DNA from: Octopus sinensis
Taxonomy: Eukaryota
NCBI RefSeq assembly: GCF_006345805.1
Contig: NC_043009.1
Location: 11,656,001-11,720,000, forward strand
Length of the DNA stretch: 64,000 nucleotides
Reading direction: 5' to 3'
Within the stretch, counting starts at the first letter, position 1, and each line of letters starts with the position of its first letter. The position numbers and the translations under genes were made by a program. Shown here in pieces: positions 24,002-45,789 of this stretch. The notes under the pieces were generated by a model, which saw only the letters and a list, made by a program, of their open reading frames with translations, was not told the DNA's origin and searched no databases.

Positions 24002-25462
24002 TTAACTTAGATAACGTAGATAGGTTTCGGCCATTATCGGCCCACGCCATGACTAACTCAATAGCACCACCTGGAAAAGTCTTTTAGTTAATTATTTCGG
24101 GACACCATGGACCACTCGAACAGAGAGTTGTTGTTGGTTGAGACGTATCCAGGTGTAGGTGGTTTATCCGGTATTTCTTGGAGGAATTTGTCCAGGTACC
24201 GTTTGAAAGTTGTGGGGTCTTTTTGTACTTTAATTTTTTGGGGGGACATTGAAAAGTGCAGGACGATTTGTAGTAAAGAAATGGTGTCGCAATGTTCTTA
24301 TGTGATGTGATCTCGACCTTTGTAGGGGACGCATTGCACGGGGGACTAGTCTTGGGCGAATTGTAAACATAATGCCAATATCATTTGGATAATATAGGTG
24401 AAATATTTTCCACATGGTGAAAATAATATATCGCTCACGGCGGCATTGCAGAGAATAGAGCTTCAGTTGTTTAAGTCGAGCCCAGTAATCAAGTTCCATC
24501 ATGCTATTTATTTATTTATTGTGATTGATCTTTGTGGTGCTTCGATCTTTTTTATATTTTGTTTTGTTTTTTTTGTTCTTTGTTCTTGTAGGGGGACCAC
24601 AATGGGCAGCAGTATTCGAGGTGAGGCCTAGTGAATGTGGAGAAGAAAAGTATGATGGTTTCAAGTTATGAGGATCCATGAGCACATTCTGCGGGCAACA
24701 TCAACTTTTTTGTTGATGTGCACACTCCAACTAAGATTGATGTCGACAGTTACACCTAAGTCTCTGATATTATCCGACGGTTCAAGTTGGTCTCCCCACG
24801 GTAGTGTATATGGTTGTTTGAATGTGCCATTTCTTCCAATGTGGATGAGCAAAAATTTTTCTTCGTTCAAATGCATATTGTTTTATTGTGACCACTGAGT
24901 TACTGCTCATAGGTCCGATTGAAGCATTGTTCGATCGTATGCTCCCTTAACGACTTCCTGGAGCTTAGAGTCATCTGCAAATATTTTTATGGCGCTAAGT
25001 TCAATGGAACCTGCAATGTCATTGATATAGACAATAAAAAGAAGTGGGCCCAGCACAGTACCTTGCGGGACTCCGCTGATGACTTTTGCTGGTCTTGAGT
25101 GGATGCCATCAATCACAACTCGCTGGGTCCTGTTTGTTAGGAAATACCTAATCCTTTGAAGTAGCTTTGCACCGACTCCAGCGTCGGATAATTTCTTTAA
25201 CAGTATATTGTGGTCGACTCTACCAAAGGCCTTACAGAAATCAAGGTATATAACACCCGCGCTGGAGCCCTCACTTAGTGCATTTAAGATGTCATCAAAG
25301 TGGTGGAGGTGCTGTGTTAGACAGCCCCTTCCACTACGAAAACCATGCTGGTTGCAATTTAGGAGATGATTTTGTTCTAAGAAGGCTGTTATTCTTGATC
25401 TCAACACTCTCTCAAATTCTTTGATGATATGTGCGGTGAGTGAGATTGGACGGTAGTTTCCA
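24002..25462 (-). mobile_element. CR1/L2-group LINE, 5'-truncated, degenerate RT plus 3' UTR
   Basis: QHGFRSGRGCLT, IYLDFCKAF, SGVPQGTVLGPLLF.VYIND, IFADDSKL, IRDLGVTVD.NLSW..HI; tail ggccgaaacctatcta.gttatctaag; (TA)n on both sides. Confidence 0.92.
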
Positions 25463-25468
25463 GGTATT

Positions 25469-25502
<34 letters not shown>

Positions 25503-25776
25503 ATCACAACACACACACCAGCACTGACCACTTCCCAGACCCACATTTTCACACCTACACATACACACACTCACACGTCAAGATCACCAACCCTCTCCCA
25601 CACGCACATACAATCTATCTTATACACACGCGCACCTTAGTTTTGGGATCACCACTACTTTATTATCAGCCCTTCTCTCTAGCTCTCCTGTGTGACCCAT
25701 CTGCCCGACATTCGCCATGATAGATCACTAGCCACTACACATTCTTTATTTTCTCTCCTTGTTTCTTTCTGTGTCC

Positions 25777-25812
25777 CTTTCTGTGGAAGAGCGTAGGCTC
25801 GAAACGTTAAAG
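25777..25812 (+). ncRNA. Minimal hammerhead motif with A6U core variant
   Basis: cttt-CTGTGGA-a gagc gtag gctc-GAAAC-GTT-aaag; related to 45755-45789. Confidence 0.6.
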
Positions 25813-28344: not shown

Positions 28345-28680
28345 AGCGGCGAGCTGGTGGAATGGTTAGCACTTCCGGGCAAAATGCTTAGTGGGATTTC
28401 ATGCGTGTTCATGCTCCGAGTTCAAATTCCACCAAGTTCAGTTTTGCTTTTCATCCTTTTAATGCGGCGAGCTGGCACAGTCGTTAGGATGCCGGGCAGG
28501 TTGCTTAGCGACATTTCATCCGTGTTTACGTTCTGAGTTCAAATTCCGCCGCAGTCACCTTTGCTTTTCATTCTTTCGGGGGTAGGTAAAATAAGTACCA
28601 GTTGAGCACTGGGGTTGATCTAACCGACTTACCCCTTCCTCCTAAATTGCAGGCTTTGCGCCAAAATTTAAAATTGGCAT
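28345..28680 (+). mobile_element. Two diverged family-A SINE heads with an A2-type tail
   Basis: gcggcgagctgg heads at about 28347 and 28464. Confidence 0.8.
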
Positions 28681-29311: not shown

Positions 29312-29354
<43 letters not shown>

Positions 29355-29516
29355 GTGTGTGTGGTTGTGTATAGAAGAATATATTAATAAAAAGAATTCC
29401 AGCCTTGTCTGATTTTCACGTTTTATTTACAATCTTATAATGATATATTATAAGATAATATATTATAATTGAATAAAATAAAATGAAATAGTAGAATGTT
29501 AAATATTCATTCTGAT

Positions 29517-29561
29517 TGAACTAGTACTTTCATGCATTGAATTCTGCAATCTTCGGGTTCA
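29517..29561 (-). ncRNA. Type-I hammerhead ribozyme in the PLE 3' terminus, U4C core variant
   Basis: Minus strand: tgaac-CCGAAGA-t tgca gaattcaa tgca t-GAAA-GTAC-TA-gttca; 5-bp stem I; palindromic helix III AGTACT; CUA triplet. Confidence 0.75.
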
Positions 29562-30011
29562 TGTAGTAGTGTTGACAGTCATGCTTCACAATTTTTGACT
29601 GTAGCAAGATGATTGATTCTGTGCTATAAATACAGCTGGGTAGGCTCCAGAGTGCTAGGTTTTGCAAACTGTATTCTGACCAATCAGTGTGTAGTACCAC
29701 TCAATTACTTAAGCTGATTGGTTGGTTGAGCTGATTGGTTTAGGCATCACGCTTTGTTGGACATGTCAAGAGTCCTGTATCTTGACCCTGGCCGAAGCAG
29801 CAATTGTTGGGTTATTTTTTAAAATGTTGTAAATATCCTTTGTCAGAGATTTTTATATTTTTATATTTCAATTGTCATCATCATCATTGTCAGCACCTTA
29901 ATTATTGTTGCTAGTGGTGATGGTGGTGGCAATAGAACTTTTAACCCTAAATAAGATAATTTTCCTGCTATCTTCATCTTGATCACCTTTAGTATTGTTG
30001 TTGTATTATTA

Positions 30012-33000
30012 TTATTGCTTATTTAGCTTGGGTTCGAATTTATCAATAAAATTCTTTTCTCTGATTTTCCTCTCGATTTCACTTGGGCTGTGTAATTTGT
30101 AGAATGGAAATATTATATATATTTTCCGACCACATGTTGCTAGGTGGTTACTCAAAGGTATCTGACGGACCTCTGGGTCTCTAATCTGTTGCCGGTGTAC
30201 ACGTGAGCGTTCAAATAGTGCGTTTCCCGTCTGACCTACATATATTTCTTCACAATTTGGGCATTTGATGCAGTAAATTAAATTCTGCTTTTGCAGTTCA
30301 TATTCGCGTTTGTGAATATTTTCCCGGTTTTTGTGTTTATATATTGACCGGTATGTATGAATTGGCATGTGCCACATCGGCTATCATTGCATTTAGATAC
30401 CGTGAATGTTTGTCTTTGTTGCTGAGGTCAAATTTTGCCTTTGTTAGTAATGTTTTCAAGTTTTTAGGCTGTCTTTTACTAAGCACCATAGCTCGATCCG
30501 TGATTATGTCTTTTAATTCATTACTTTGGGCAATGATTGGTAGGTTTGCTTTGGCAATGTTGAAGATATTCTGGTGACATGGGTTGTGTGTCACTATGAA
30601 TGGTATGACTTGTTCTTGTTTTCCTCTTCCTTGGGTTGTCCTAAGTTGTTGTATGGGTATTTTTATAGCCCGCTGTATGCCATTTTCTATAAGTAGAGAT
30701 GGGTATTTTTGTTTGAGCAAAAATTCTCTTAGTTCTATTAGGCGTTTGTTCCTGATATTTGCATCTTCTACAATAGTACAAATTCTTCTGGCTAGGCAGT
30801 ATGGGATGTTACGTTTTGTATGTGGTGGATGGCACGACTTAAAATTTAGGTATTGATGTGTGTCTGTGTGTTTATAGTATATATCTGTGGTGATGGTGGT
30901 GTCTTTTTTAATTACCATTATATCCAGGAATGGTATTCGGTACTACTCATCTCCTTTGTAAATTGGAGAGATGGGTGTAGGTTGTTCAGGAGGATATTGA
31001 ACTCTTCCAGAGTATTTAGAGATTCTGTCCAGATTATGAAACAGTCGTCTAGGTATCTCTTCCATGCCTTTTCAATATATTTTCTAAATCCAGTGCCATA
31101 GTTTACCTCCACCTCTTGGTAGAGTTGTTGTTCCAAGTATCCCATTACAGAGTTGGCGTAAACGGGAGCAAACCTCGTTCCCATCGCCGTGCCTCTAATT
31201 TGGATGTAATTCTTTCCATTGAAGAAGAATGTGTTATTTTCTAGAATAAGTTTGACTGTGTCTAATATAAATGGCACTGTGAATCTGCTGGGAATCACTT
31301 CTCTATGTTTTTCTAACCAGTATTTAATCGCCTTTATTCCTAAATCGTGTGGAATATTGGTGTTGTAGAGGCTTACCACATCAAAACTTAGTAAAACTGA
31401 ATTTGTTTCTGTTGTTTTGGGAAGATGGGACAGGAAGTCGATGTAATCCCTGATGAAACTTGGTATGTAAGTACATAGTGGTTTCAAAACAATGTCAATA
31501 AAATTGCTTAGACGGTGTGTAGGGCATGCTGGACCAGCTATAATAGGTCTAAGTTTTAGGTCTTTTGGATGTAATAATTTTATGTACTCACTTTCTTGTT
31601 CTTTTACTGCCTGTTGAATGTTTTTGATTTGTGTATTTTTGGTAAGCCGTAGAAGTTGCTGGGTTTTGGTTCAAAATTGGTGATGTAGTTTTTTCATTAT
31701 CCGTAAGTGAGTTGTGGGTGTGTGAAATCAGGTTGTTGATCTTTTTCATGATGTGGTGGTCTATATTTGCGGGTATTTCACAATAGAAGGTTGTATCCTT
31801 CAGTTGGTCTTCAACCAAATCCTTATAGTATTCGGTATCCATAATAACAATTGCACCACCTTTATCTGCTGTTTAATTATTATTGTTTGATCGTTTTGTA
31901 TACGTTTACATGCAGACATCTCTGATTTGCTAATGTTTGGCCTAACATTGGTATTGCGTCTAAGGGGAAATTTAGACAGGATATCAATGTATTGGTCAAG
32001 GTAGTTATTTCTTCCTTTTGGTGGGGTGAAATTTCATTATTCCTTACTAGGGATTCATCAATCTCATTACTTTTGTTAGCGAAGAATTCTACAAGTCGTA
32101 ATTTTCGACAGAATTTTTGGATATCCTCCTTTAATTCTTGGTGGTTGGCTGTTGGTGTAGGTGTGAATTTCAGTCCTTTTGACAGAAGTTGGATTTCATC
32201 ATTGTCAAGATTTCTTTTTGATAAATTAATTATTTTAGGATCTATACGTTCAGTTGTTTTGGGTATGTTTCCTCTTGGATTTTTTCTTTCTCCGGTGTTT
32301 GTTGTCCTGACGTAAAAAAATGGATTTTTTTCTGTTTATGATTTATATTCCTGTTGATGTTTGCTTGATGAATTTTGCGTTTTGGTTGTGGTACTTTACT
32401 TGGTTTCGTTATGTTTTCAGTTTTGTTTTTGGTATTATGTATGCGACTTTTCAATTTCTTGTTAGCATTGTTTTTAACCACCTGGAGAAATGATCTGGGT
32501 TTACTTCTAGATCCATATCGGTTTTTTGTCCAGTTTCTTGTGGGTAATCTCTGTTGAGGTCTTGAAAATGATCTCTTGTTATTTCTACTGCTAATGGTCT
32601 GTTCAAAACAATATCTATTTTGTTTGTGCTTTTTGTTCATGTTGTGTGCATTAGGGTGTTTGCATACAAAAAGGGAAGAGTTCTTACCGTAGTTCGTCTT
32701 CGATTCGTGGTGAAACGGGTGTTCATGTTGCCACGTGTTCTGGTGTATGTTGCGTTGGTGAGGTTGTCCACTTTTAATGCTATTTCTCGGAGTTCTGGTG
32801 TCTTTACCGTAATTTGTAGCATATTTGTCGAGAAATAATTGTTTCCGCTGCCAAAACTTTCTTGATCTGCTTTCTTCTTTTGAGATATCTCTGATCCATA
32901 GTTCTCGCATTTTTTCTGCTATATTGCCGGTCGTTAGTTTGGATATTTCATCTCTGATTTGATCATCGATAGCTTCGTATTTGGCTTTGTAGCGAGATTG

Positions 33001-33042
33001 TTTAGACAGGGTAATGGAGATGTCGGTCCTGAATTTTATCAA
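30012..33042 (-). pseudogene. PLE polyprotein (N-terminal region, RT, GIY-YIG endonuclease) split by several frameshifts
   Basis: ORF pieces 32242-33042, 31588-31842, 30918-31487, 30337-30918, 30012-30377; NLIYCIKCPNCEEIYVGQTG...ER...H...H...E.....PKLN. Confidence 0.9.
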
Positions 33043-33081
33043 ACTAAGGTCCCATCGAAGTTTAGTTTCTATATATTACCG

Positions 33082-34796: not shown

Positions 34797-35028
34797 TATT
34801 TCTTTATTGCCCACAGGGGGCTAAACACAGAGGGGGACAAACAAGGACAGACAAACGGATTAAGTCGATTACATCGACCCCAGTGCGTAACTGGTACTTA
34901 ATTTATCGATCCCGAAAGGATAAAAGGCAAAGTCGACCTCGGCGGAATTTGAACTCAGAACGTAGCAGCAGTCGAAATACCGCTAAGCATTTCGCCCAGC
35001 GTGCTAACGTTTCTGCTAGCTCCCCGCC
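34797..35028 (-). mobile_element. Full-length family-A SINE with 17-bp TSD
   Basis: TSD ttttcttttgaaaatct at 34780-34796 and 35029-35045. Confidence 0.92.
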
Positions 35029-37281: not shown

Positions 37282-37510
37282 CGGTGAGCTAGCAGAATTG
37301 GTAGCACGCCGGGCGAAATGCGTAGCCGTACTTCGTCTGCCGTTACGTTCTGAGTTCAAATTCCGCTGAGGTCGACTTTGCCTTTCATCCTTTCGGGGTC
37401 GATAAATTAAGCACCAGTTACGCACTGGGGTCGATGTAATCGACTTAATCCATTTGTCTGTCCTTGTTTGTCCCCTCTATGTTTAGCCCCTTGTGGGCAA
37501 TAAAGAAATA
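37282..37510 (+). mobile_element. Full-length family-A SINE
   Basis: Head, B-box, tail ...agccccttgtgggcaataaagaaat. Confidence 0.9.
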
Positions 37511-42094: not shown

Positions 42095-43279
42095 ATGCCT
42101 GTATAGAGTTGATGGTTTTAATTAAATATCAGAATATTTTGTAGATCAAGAAACGAAATTTTGCTTTGTAGCTATGCAAAGAATGTGTAGTCCCAATGAA
42201 AGGTTATCATGAATTGTAAAATTTAACATTTCCATATGGGAACGATATAACTGTATAATTAACTTCAGCGACATATTTATTTTAGAAATACTCTTTTACT
42301 TGTTTCAGTCATGTGACTGGGGCCATGCTGGAGCACCGCCTTTTTAGTCGAGCAAATCGACCCCAGGACTTATTCTTTGTAAGCCTAGTATTTATTCTAT
42401 CCGTCTCTTTTGCCGAATCCCTAAGTTACTGGGACGTAAACACACCAGTATAGGTTGTCAAGCGATGCTGGGGGGAGAAACACAGACACACAAACACACA
42501 AACACATATATATATACATATATACGACGGGCTTCTTTCAGTTTCCGTCTACCAAATCCACTCACAAAGCTTTGGTCGGCCCGAGGCTATAGTAGAAGAC
42601 ACTTGCCCAAGGACTGAACCCGAAACCATGTGGTTCGTAAGCAAGCTACTTACTACACAGCCACTCTTGTGCCTTGCATATGTTTGAGAAATAGAATCTG
42701 GAGCGTTTAAGTCTCGAAACTGTAACATAAAATACCACATGTCATGCAAATTTATCCAAACACATGAACTTTCTATGTTATCTTTTTCCAATACAGACCA
42801 TCACTGATTTCTTTTGACTCACTTTTTAATGTGTAACATTACTCTTTCATCATTATATTGTCGATTTACAGTGTAGTTTCTATTTCTCTGATGACGTTTA
42901 ATGATATCGAAACGTGTTCCAGCTTATCTTCTGTGTTTGAATTAACTGATTGTTTGTGTGTGGTGGTGCTATTGTGGGTGTGAAGGCAGCGAGCTGGCAG
43001 AATCGTTAGCACGCCGGGCGAAATGCTTAGCAGTATTTCGTCTGCCGTTACGTTCTGAGTTCAAATTCCGCCGAGGTCGACTTTGCCTTTCATCCCTTCG
43101 GGATATACCAGTTATGCACTAGGGTCGATATAATCGACTTAATCCGTTTGTCTGTCCTTATTTGTCCTCTCTGTGTTTAGCCCCTTGTGGGTAGTAAAGA
43201 AATAGGTATTGTGGGTTGTGTATGTGCGCGTGTGATGTTGAGATGAGTGTGTGATGGTGTGGTGCGTGTATACTTACAC

Positions 43280-43853: not shown

Positions 43854-45559
43854 ATATATAATGCCTGTATAGAGTTGATGGTTTTAATTAAATATCAGAA
43901 TATTTTGTAGATCAAGAAACGAAATTTTGCTTTGTAGCTATGCAAAGAATGTGTAGTCCCAATGAAAGGTTATCATGAATTGTAAAATTTAACATTTCCA
44001 TATGGGAACGATATAACTGTATAATTAACTTCAGCGACATATTTATTTTAGAAATACTCTTTTACTTGTTTCAGTCATGTGACTGGGGCCATGCTGGAGC
44101 ACCGCCTTTTTAGTCGAGCAAATCGACCCCAGGACTTATTCTTTGTAAGCCTAGTATTTATTCTATCCGTCTCTTTTGCCGAATCCCTAAGTTACTGGGA
44201 CGTAAACACACCAGTATAGGTTGTCAAGCGATGCTGGGGGGAGAAACACAGACACACAAACACATATATATATACATATATACGACGGGCTTCTTTCAGT
44301 TTCCGTCTACCAAATCCACTCACAAAGCTTTGGTCGGCCCGAGGCTATAGTAGAAGACACTTGCCCAAGGACTGAACCCGAAACCATGTGGTTCGTAAGC
44401 AAGCTACTTACTACACAGCCACTCTTGTGCCTTGCATATGTTTGAGAAATAGAATCTGGAGCGTTTAAGTCTCGAAACTGTAACATAAAATACCACATGT
44501 CATGCAAATTTATCCAAACACATGAACTTTCTATGTTATCTTTTTCCAATACAGACCATCACTGATTTCTTTTGACTCACTTTTTAATGTGTAACATTAC
44601 TCTTTCATCATTATATTGTCGATTTACAGTGTAGTTTCTATTTCTCTGATGACGTTTAATGATATCGAAACGTGTTCCAGCTTATCTTCTGTGTTTGAAT
44701 TAACTGATTGTTTGTGTGTGGTGGTGCTATTGTGGGTATGAAGGCAGCGAGCTGGCAGAATCGTTAGCACGCCGGGCGAAATGCTTAGCAGTATTTCGTC
44801 TGCCGTTACGTTCTGAGTTCAAATTCCACCGAGGTCGACTTTGCCTTTCATCCCTTCGGGATATACCAGTTATGCACTAGGGTCGATATAATCGACTTAA
44901 TCCGTTTGTCTGTCCTTATTTGTCCTCTCTGTGTTTAGCCCCTTGTGGGTAGTAAAGAAATAGGTATTGTGGGTTGTGTATGTGCGCGTGTGATGTTGAG
45001 ATGAGTGTGTGATGGTGTGGTGCGTGTATACTACACACACGCACACACACACACACACACATACTCACATACGCGCACATGTGTTTGTATTGTGAGAATG
45101 AAGTCGTATGACATATTTTCCAGTACTTAGAAGTTCGCGTGTTCCTTCATAATCCAAAACGGAAAGATGTGAAGAGAATTCTTGTTATTTAATCTGACAT
45201 TCTTGATACTGCTCTTCATAGATACAAAGACCACAGAGCAAACAAGTTTAAACAAGACTGGGGTGTTACTTTTGAAACTATTTATATCACTGTTACACGT
45301 GTTTCAGTGAAGAAAGGACGAGTTACGTAATCCTGACCCGAGATACTAATTAGATAACCCGGACATCAGAGTTGATTTCACACTAGATTATTGTAGCTGC
45401 CGATAGTTATATAGAAGATTGTGCTTTTTTTTTTGTTTTTGAAAGATTAAAATGGAGAAGGCAACATACTACTTCTGGGTATTCTTCTTAAGCTTAAAAT
45501 AGCTGAAAACTTTATCATTTATCAGTCGAGTATATAAATATCTCTTTAACACCATAAAA

Positions 45560-45754: not shown

Positions 45755-45789
45755 GTTTAACGTTTCGAGCGGAGCTCTTCGTCAGAAAC
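45755..45789 (-). ncRNA. Minimal type-I hammerhead ribozyme with canonical core, in an approx. 200-bp element (45660-45860)
   Basis: Minus strand: gttt-CTGACGA-a gagc tcc gctc-GAAAC-GTT-aaac. Confidence 0.8.

What the first reader, a model, noticed from the sequence alone, without database searches (positions are those of the whole stretch)
29517..29561. PLE terminal hammerhead with non-canonical CCGAAGA core (U4C) and CUA triplet
Seen: about 450 bp downstream of the GIY-YIG stop lies a hammerhead fold with 5-bp stem I (tgaac/gttca), a tgca/tgca stem II with a U-U first pair, and palindromic helix III AGUACU, but core position 4 is C instead of the conserved U. TG-to-CG runs against the usual direction of CpG decay, and the element is otherwise well preserved. 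Inference: a family-level variant ribozyme rather than random decay.
Basis: partly seen in the sequence, partly recalled or inferred. Interest (0 to 1): 0.75.

Follow-up and report, generated by a model that had tools for sequence, protein, structure and literature searches.

The report
Penelope subfamily with U4C hammerhead
The youngest branch of a jumping-gene family in this animal genome carries a self-cutting RNA motif with one normally fixed core letter changed (U to C) in about 350 copies; the change did not stop the branch from spreading, and it likely leaves a slower but still working ribozyme, like the same change known from viroids.

Summary
Observation confirmed: a minimal type I hammerhead with core CCGAAGA lies at 29517-29561 (-) in the pseudo-LTR of a Neptune-like Penelope element. 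C4 is neither error nor decay, but it is not the whole family's consensus: 387 of 740 exact matches have U4. The C4 copies form a younger clade nested in older U4 copies (0.6% vs 2.3% divergence; 7 of 52 vs 0 of 48 full-length), so U4C is derived and survived several rounds of copying. The motif was under purifying selection earlier (0 of 37 changes vs 45 of 327 in flanks). One chimeric insertion joins a foreign hammerhead's cut end to C4-type RNA exactly at the predicted cut site. U4C is a published, cleaving natural variant in viroid-like RNAs; I did not find it reported for Penelope elements. It recurs in an unrelated family here (10,492 descriptor matches), but so does A6U (27,517 A6-variant matches), so relaxed selection is a real rival. 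The scan noted U4C Penelope hammerheads before, on a shark-like genome and on another family here. Best reading: slowed, tolerated ribozyme that hitch-hiked. Cleavage untested.

The parts
29517..29561 (-). Minimal type I hammerhead with U4C core, in the pLTR
   Evidence: Sequence and fold; identical in 32 of 34 hits in the window and the 30 nearest loci, all 34 with C4
29555..29555 (-). Core position 4, C instead of U
   Evidence: C also in contigs of organisms A and B
29523..29528 (-). Palindrome AGUACU; predicted intermolecular helix III of a dimer
   Evidence: Self-duplex -4.8 kcal/mol; cofold dimer -17.0 vs -5.3 for a monomer, with stems I and III formed between the two molecules
29521..29522 (-). 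Predicted cleavage site, after A17 (29522), before G1.1 (29521)
   Evidence: Hammerhead numbering; the chimera L149 starts this family's sequence exactly here
29533..29548 (-). Stem II (4 bp) and loop 2; the older sister subfamily has a fifth pair
29575..29602 (-). Short hairpin at the inferred RNA 5' end, with an initiator-like CAGT (A at 29600); junction of many inverted pLTR pairs
   Evidence: 25 of 100 sampled copies begin at -42..-36; 11 of 37 short copies have an inverted partner upstream; the initiator label is recalled, not tested
29625..29632 (-). TATA-like box: TATTTATA in the C4 clade, TATTTAAG in most U4 copies
   Evidence: 68 of 69 main C4 copies vs 24 of 32 U4 copies; position; promoter role inferred
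29717..29738 (-). Two CCAAT boxes upstream of the TATA-like box
   Evidence: promoter role inferred
29323..30011 (-). 3' pLTR and tail of the element, ending in a (TA)n tract; family 3' ends cluster at +183 and about +232 from the hammerhead start
30012..33070 (-). 5'-truncated, frameshifted PLE ORF: RT (about 30921-31670), Cys linker, GIY-YIG endonuclease (about 30015-30380)
   Evidence: Pfam RVT_1 E=2.4e-5 (below the curated cut-off) and GIY-YIG E=9.8e-7; alignment to a full-length copy

Best explanation
This is the pLTR hammerhead of a Neptune-like Penelope retrotransposon whose youngest subfamily fixed a U4C core change, which likely leaves a slowed but still cleavage-competent ribozyme that the element tolerates. 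Inferred working: a promoter in the pLTR starts the RNA about 38 nt before the hammerhead. Two hammerheads pair through stems I and III, so that one RNA's core cuts the partner after A17. Reverse transcription starts about 140-190 nt past the cut site and must cross it, so copies are made from uncut or rejoined RNA and fast cutting is not needed. U4C arose in a source element, was inherited by successive source elements, and probably rose with linked changes (for example a better TATA-like box) or by chance rather than for its own sake.
For: Shown: C4 copies form a clade (100/99 and 100/98) nested in U4 copies when rooted on an older sister subfamily that has U4 in 21 of 25 copies. They are younger (mean 0.58% from their majority, 52 copies, vs 2.28%, 45 of 48 scored) and hold the full-length copies (7 of 52 vs 0 of 48). 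Indels in 14 near-full-length C4 copies are private (198 of 199 deletion positions in at most 2 copies), so the source ORF was intact. An early C4 stage exists (43 matches with C4 and the old loop-2 base). Earlier purifying selection: 0 of 37 core and stem positions differ between sister and U4 majorities vs 45 of 327 flank positions (binomial P=0.004). The chimera L149 joins another family's hammerhead at its C17 to this family's G1.1 without microhomology, and its 3' 143 nt are identical to four C4-clade copies. In an unrelated family, C4 is kept across two subfamilies that differ at 40 of 155 flank positions while 0 of 13 free hammerhead positions differ (P about 0.02). A/G at position 4 shows no excess over control (678 vs 939), C does (10,492 vs 112). 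Papers: U4C lowers activity in vitro yet allows viroid infectivity (PMC3088659, passages); CCGA hammerheads of ZV1 and bvdl786 cleave in vitro (10.64898/2026.09.16.752053, passages); hammerhead-dead mutants of an anole PLE still insert in vitro (PMC11167929, parts 1-2 of 4).
Against: No cleavage assay. One core change among 37 positions is what drift would give on that branch (17 of 338 flank changes), and too little time has passed since to test constraint. A6 variants, mostly A6U in the listed rows, reach 27,517 matches (control 323), so even a more damaging core change spreads here. The chimera is a single locus, and in the dimer a U4 RNA could have done the cutting, since stems I and III are identical in both subfamilies. 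A U4-bearing copy is only 1 mismatch from the chimera's 3' part. Comprehensive mutagenesis of another hammerhead found low activity for changes in the CUGA turn (PMC9901934 section 7). This motif also has a U-U pair and lost a stem II pair, so the defects may add up. 14 matches have U4 with the young loop-2 base, some on a C4 background, against 1 CpA, which hints at reversion or conversion back to U4.
Confidence: 0.58

Rival explanations
1. U4C has effectively killed the ribozyme and the element no longer needs it: selection on the hammerhead relaxed and the change drifted to fixation in the source lineage.
For: The change is compatible with neutrality on its branch. Copies do not pile up at the cut site: of 13 copies lacking A17 before the downstream 30-mer (786 have it), 1 starts exactly there, 3 are fold-backs within 5 nt of it, 2 are rearranged and 7 are point mutants. 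Hammerhead mutants insert normally in vitro (PMC11167929). Naiads multiply without canonical hammerheads (PMC8557442, passages). A6 variants are very abundant here.
Against: The chimera at the exact cut site with a C4-type 3' part; constraint on the C4 motif in the unrelated family; published CCGA hammerheads cleave; no second core or stem change in the C4 majority (low power).
Confidence: 0.2
2. C4 elements are poor enzymes but good substrates: their RNA is cut in trans by U4 transcripts from the older copies, because stems I and III are identical. The C4 lineage would then be a partial cheater.
For: The predicted dimer has intermolecular stems I and III; stems are identical in U4 and C4 majorities; 387 U4 copies remain; both alleles occur in contigs of one run guessed to be RNA (X8).
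Against: No full-length U4 copy among 48 sampled; neighbouring C4 units of one tandem transcript should pair more readily than separate RNAs (inference); co-expression was not shown.
Confidence: 0.13
3. U4C was favoured: slower cutting preserves the capped mRNA and the uncut template that reverse transcription must cross, so C4 elements out-copied U4 elements.
For: C4 replaced U4 among the young copies sampled; C4 also dominates the exact matches of an unrelated family (68 of the first 100); RT start sites lie downstream of the cut site.
Against: 34 majority differences in 1184 positions are linked to C4, including the TATA-like box; U4 was conserved for a long time before; another abundant family stays U4 (4 C4 in the first 100).
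Confidence: 0.08
4. C4 is a sequencing error or the decay of this one copy.
For: The assembly has many single-base indels in these copies, and a few U4-background copies carry sporadic C4 (L228, L235, L240).
Against: About 350 copies, one main clade, and independent runs from two organisms.
Confidence: 0.01

Closest known systems
Minimal hammerheads of metazoan Penelope-like elements (Cervera and de la Pena 2014, PMC4209133; read parts 1-2 of 4 of the text and part 2 of 3 of supplementary file 2; file 1 not searchable)
   Same: Type I motif in the pLTR, short stem I, small palindromic helix III, dimer-dependent design, many dispersed copies and close inverted pairs
   Different: Core CCGA. The 44 alignment rows I saw all have CUGA or UUGA, though their descriptor required those boxes. 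Stem II opens with U-U rather than G10.1-C11.1
U4C (CCGA) natural hammerhead variants of viroids and viroid-like RNAs: PLMVd (via passages of PMC3088659 and PMC9608096; the original, PMC147498, not held), CtaHVd-LR1, ZV1, bvdl786 (10.64898/2026.09.16.752053, passages)
   Same: Identical core substitution, reported to cleave
   Different: Those are RNA replicons, the ZV1 and bvdl786 motifs type III; here the change is fixed in a DNA-genome retrotransposon subfamily, in a minimal dimer-dependent motif that also has a U-U pair
PAc (Poseidon of Anolis carolinensis) hammerhead (Frangieh et al. 2024, PMC11167929; parts 1-2 of 4 read)
   Same: Tandem pLTR layout, two internal RT start sites downstream of the hammerhead giving an optional tail, AT-rich targets, uncut RNA as main template
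   Different: PAc is Penelope/Poseidon and its hammerhead overlaps the ORF start; this element has the Neptune-type Cys linker, its hammerhead lies about 250 nt before the ATG, and its core is U4C
Small PLE hammerhead variants of Lunse, Weinberg and Breaker 2017 (PMC5785218; not held, title seen only in a reference list)
   Same: PLE-associated hammerheads with diminished stem III that cleave as dimers
   Different: Could not check whether their roughly 150,000 representatives (number recalled) include C4 cores; this is the main gap in the novelty claim

Membership tests
Minimal type I hammerhead of PLEs | Stems I and II around the two core boxes | tested here: met
Minimal type I hammerhead of PLEs | Core CUGANGA (or U3/A8 form) | tested here: not met
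   C at position 4; met in 387 older copies
Minimal type I hammerhead of PLEs | GAAA and NUH triplet | tested here: met
   GAAA; CUA
Minimal type I hammerhead of PLEs | Palindromic helix III allowing a dimer | tested here: met
   AGUACU; cofold dimer -17.0 kcal/mol; prediction only
Minimal type I hammerhead of PLEs | G10.1-C11.1 pair | tested here: not met
   U-U in all three subfamily majorities; known natural variant
Minimal type I hammerhead of PLEs | Located in the pLTR | tested here: met
   Head-to-tail copies about 4.27 kb apart each carry it
Minimal type I hammerhead of PLEs | Self-cleavage | not testable with these tools
   Only indirect: chimera L149
EN+ Penelope-like element | Single ORF with RT and C-terminal GIY-YIG | tested here: met
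   ORF span about 1170 codons; indels private
EN+ Penelope-like element | Partial tandems forming pLTRs, inverted 5'-truncated copies, optional tail | tested here: met
Neptune clade | CX2-5CxxC linker between RT and EN; CCHH in EN; microsatellite targets | tested here: met
   C-X4-C-X2-C before the GIY-YIG and CCHH residues read; (TA)n flanks; definition from PMC8557442; the linker is shared with Nematis
Neptune clade | RT phylogeny with reference Neptune and Nematis elements | not tested
   No reference PLE proteins were fetched

The most novel reading that the evidence does not exclude
In this genome hammerheads with 'forbidden' cores (U4C, A6U) outnumber canonical ones (about 38,000 vs 18,934 matches to one descriptor). 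Penelope RNAs would cut one another in trans, letting catalytically weak lineages spread, and cut RNAs of different families would be rejoined at their ribozyme sites and copied into the genome, as the chimera L149 suggests: recombination of retroelement RNAs at ribozyme cut sites in the germ line.
Probability: 0.15. Interest if true: 0.75.

Novelty: new variant of a known kind. Interest (0 to 1): 0.45.

Why it matters
What the hammerhead does for Penelope elements is an open question (PMC8557442, PMC11167929). This family offers a natural pair: an older U4 and a younger C4 subfamily with identical stems, so the cost of weakening the ribozyme can be measured on real alleles. Published descriptors require CUGA or UUGA and would miss these copies, and here at least 10,000 C4 and 27,000 A6-variant matches. 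The chimera, if confirmed, is a genomic trace of PLE hammerhead cleavage in vivo, which RNA-seq of the anole element failed to show.

Tried and rejected
Rfam scan of the window: no match. Monomer folding energy: uninformative. First copy survey: all C4, but biased to copies most like the window, so replaced by pattern counts. CpG decay as the source of U4 copies: rejected (1 CpA; U4 copies carry their own linked bases). Search for more chimeras: none found among 27 copies with a non-G after A17, 21 with an altered helix III before the cut site, 10 of 11 family-B copies displayed with a non-C after C17 and 1 with a non-C before it. L287 is a deletion at a 5-nt microhomology and L282 a 4-nt insertion in an error-rich copy; neither was counted. 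The L149 junction was not bridged by any listed contig in 4 Logan runs, which is no evidence either way. No holder on record as RNA was listed and no raw reads were offered, so expression and RNA ends were not tested. (alignment fold) had mis-registered rows and was not used. (bacterial promoter scan) was irrelevant. One search timed out. Papers not held: Lunse 2017, Ambros and Flores 1998, Arkhipova 2017. Paper searches for a PLE U4C report and for A6U listed none, judged from listings and abstract starts. No RT tree and no protein database search were run.

Full report
Observation. The minus strand of 29517-29561 reads as a minimal type I hammerhead: 5-bp stem I, core CCGAAGA, U-U pair, 4-bp stem II, GAAA, palindrome AGUACU and triplet CUA. 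It lies 450 nt past the stop of a GIY-YIG frame. Monomer stability is unremarkable (z = -0.52) and Rfam has no match. Two copies fold together at -17.0 kcal/mol, against -5.3 for one, with stems I and III formed between the molecules. This is the dimer design described for metazoan PLE hammerheads (PMC4209133).

The element. The window holds a 5'-truncated copy (33070-29323) of a repeat with a unit of about 4.27 kb. An intact stretch of another copy shows RT, a C-X4-C-X2-C linker and a GIY-YIG domain with CCHH residues, which fits the Neptune or Nematis definition in PMC8557442; no RT tree was made. Copies sit in (TA)n, end at +183 or about +232 from the hammerhead start, and occur as head-to-tail tandems and inverted pairs. 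The genome has 2.72 Gb; an earlier AI note calls it octopus-like, which I did not test.

Is C4 the consensus? The 30 best-matching loci all had C4, but that set is biased. A pattern with position 4 free gave 740 matches, 387 of them U4. The first 100 listed were 52 C4 and 48 U4. Only 1 of 5 position-5 variants was the CpA expected from decay of the same CpG. U4 and C4 copies differ at 34 of 1184 majority positions. These are two subfamilies.

Which is derived? C4 copies average 0.58% from their majority (27 of 52 identical), U4 copies 2.28% (45 of 48 scored); 7 of 52 C4 and 0 of 48 U4 copies are full-length. An older sister subfamily (25 of 40 matches fetched; median divergence 9%) has U4 in 21 of 25. 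In a tree of 58 rows (12 of 25 sister, 25 U4, 21 of 63 C4) the C4 clade has support 100/99 and lies inside the U4 copies; it contains one U4 copy, L115. Adding the early stage (43 matches with C4 and the old loop-2 base; 30 fetched) gives a clade of 27 rows at 100/98 with stepwise haplotypes, while 3 C4-bearing copies fall among U4 copies as sporadic or earlier changes. So U4C arose in a source element and passed through several later ones. Indels in 14 near-full-length C4 copies are private; the one shared by 13 reflects a deletion in the reference copy. The C4 lineage was therefore autonomous and recently active.

Selection. Between sister and U4 majorities, 0 of 37 core and stem positions differ against 45 of 327 flank positions (binomial P = 0.004, Fisher P = 0.008). 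The motif mattered, though constraint on this stretch could also reflect protein binding. Between U4 and C4 majorities the figures are 1 of 37 and 17 of 338, as drift would give. This family alone cannot separate 'tolerated' from 'no longer needed'.

How the RNA is used (inferred). CCAAT boxes, a TATA-like box at -70 and an initiator-like CAGT at -39 lie upstream (motif names recalled), and 25 of 100 copies begin at -42..-36, which points to a transcription start there. Copies end 140-190 nt downstream of the cut site, so reverse transcription crosses it. Copies starting at the cut site are rare: 13 lack A17 before the downstream 30-mer, 786 have it; copies preceded by a chance A were not examined. 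This matches the anole element, where uncut RNA is the main template and dead hammerheads still insert (PMC11167929). In all 7 head-to-tail C4 arrays examined the upstream copy reaches past the inferred start (-95 to -3604), as expected from circular or read-through templates. The TATA-like box changed to TATTTATA on the C4 branch, a candidate driver of the sweep.

A trace of cleavage. One of the 13 copies, L149, starts exactly at G1.1 and is preceded by 40 nt of another hammerhead family (201 matches; U3/A8 core) ending exactly at its C17. There is no microhomology, and the 174-nt chimera sits in (TA)n. Its 3' 143 nt equal four C4-clade copies. The simplest reading is that both RNAs were cut at their ribozyme sites and then ligated, or bridged by an RT jump; RtcB joins such ends in vitro (PMC7229834, passages). 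Limits: one locus, no second case found, not confirmed in other data, and a U4 partner could have supplied the core.

Recurrence. An earlier AI note prompted a genome-wide count with one descriptor (matches/reversed control): U4 18,934/151; C4 10,492/112; A or G at 4, 678/939; position-5 variants 1,445/927; position-6 variants 27,517/323. Of the 100 listed C4 rows most belong to an unrelated family (8,909 exact matches; first 100: 68 C4, 30 U4, 2 CpA). Two C4 subfamilies of it (20 and 8 loci) differ at 40 of 155 flank positions and 0 of 13 free hammerhead positions (P about 0.02), which suggests constraint in the C4 state. That family's link to a PLE was not established (RT hits in 4 of 30 loci). 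A third family stays U4. The A6U family cuts the other way: family-wide core changes are not limited to the mild one.

Known comparisons. U4C is a natural variant in PLMVd, a citrus-associated viroid-like RNA, zeta virus ZV1 and betaviroid-like RNAs; it is described as less active in vitro or unaffected, and the ZV1 and bvdl786 motifs cleaved at the expected sites. Deep mutagenesis of another hammerhead gave low activity for CUGA changes. I found no report of a C4 PLE subfamily, but Lunse 2017 was not available. I also saw find-passages of 10.64898/2026.07.22.740005, PMC6765202 and PMC3376415, which added nothing on U4C.

Verdict. Real, inherited, subfamily-level and derived; a new setting for a known core variant. 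Most likely a slowed, tolerated ribozyme (0.58), with dead-and-dispensable (0.2), trans-complemented (0.13) and favoured attenuation (0.08) as rivals. Interest 0.45: the substitution is known, while the matched U4/C4 pair, the abundance of non-canonical cores and the cut-site chimera make PLE hammerhead function testable.

Noticed in passing
L149:1395-1570 (G000:C6, about 62,318,240-62,318,420, minus strand): Chimeric insertion: another family's hammerhead up to its C17 joined without microhomology to this family's sequence from G1.1; possible trace of cleavage plus RNA ligation.
   Followed up: partly
window 25777-25812 (+): Copy of a very abundant minimal-hammerhead-shaped family with core CUGUNGA (A6U), stems CTTT/AAAG and GAGC/GCTC; A6 variants give 27,517 matches vs 323 control, and position 7 takes all four bases in the listed rows. 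Possibly more notable than the finding itself.
   Followed up: partly
window about 45756-45789 (-); L334-L363: U4 copy of a family with 8,909 exact matches that is mostly C4 (68 of the first 100); the window's U4 copy nests among C4 copies.
   Followed up: partly
L250-L273: Hammerhead family with U3/A8 core and ACCGGU palindrome, often as close inverted or about 360-nt tandem pairs, like a retrozyme or solo pLTR.
   Followed up: partly
window 29380-29570, run X8: Contigs with many T>C changes on + (A>G on the element's sense strand; 24 places listed), like ADAR hyper-editing; the run is only guessed to be RNA.
   Followed up: no
L150, L151, L153: Fold-back junctions within 5 nt of the predicted cut site, at a GUUCA/UGAAC hairpin; may be cDNA that ended at a cut RNA end, or plain template switching.
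   Followed up: partly
L204-L217: 14 copies with U4 and the young loop-2 base, several on a C4 background, vs 1 CpA: possible reversion or conversion to U4.
   Followed up: partly
window 42684-42724 and 44442-44482 (+): Two identical hammerhead-like strings 1,758 nt apart picked up by a loose descriptor.
   Followed up: no
window 24907-25503 (-): Fragment of a LINE-type reverse transcriptase frame (label recalled).
   Followed up: no
window 28348-28581, 34833-35026, 37282-37475: Dispersed SINE-like repeat copies in both orientations.
   Followed up: no
L290-L296 (G000:C30, 10.16-10.20 Mb): Seven U4 copies with the same G1.1-to-A change at a spacing of about 6.4 kb: a segmental tandem array.
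   Followed up: no
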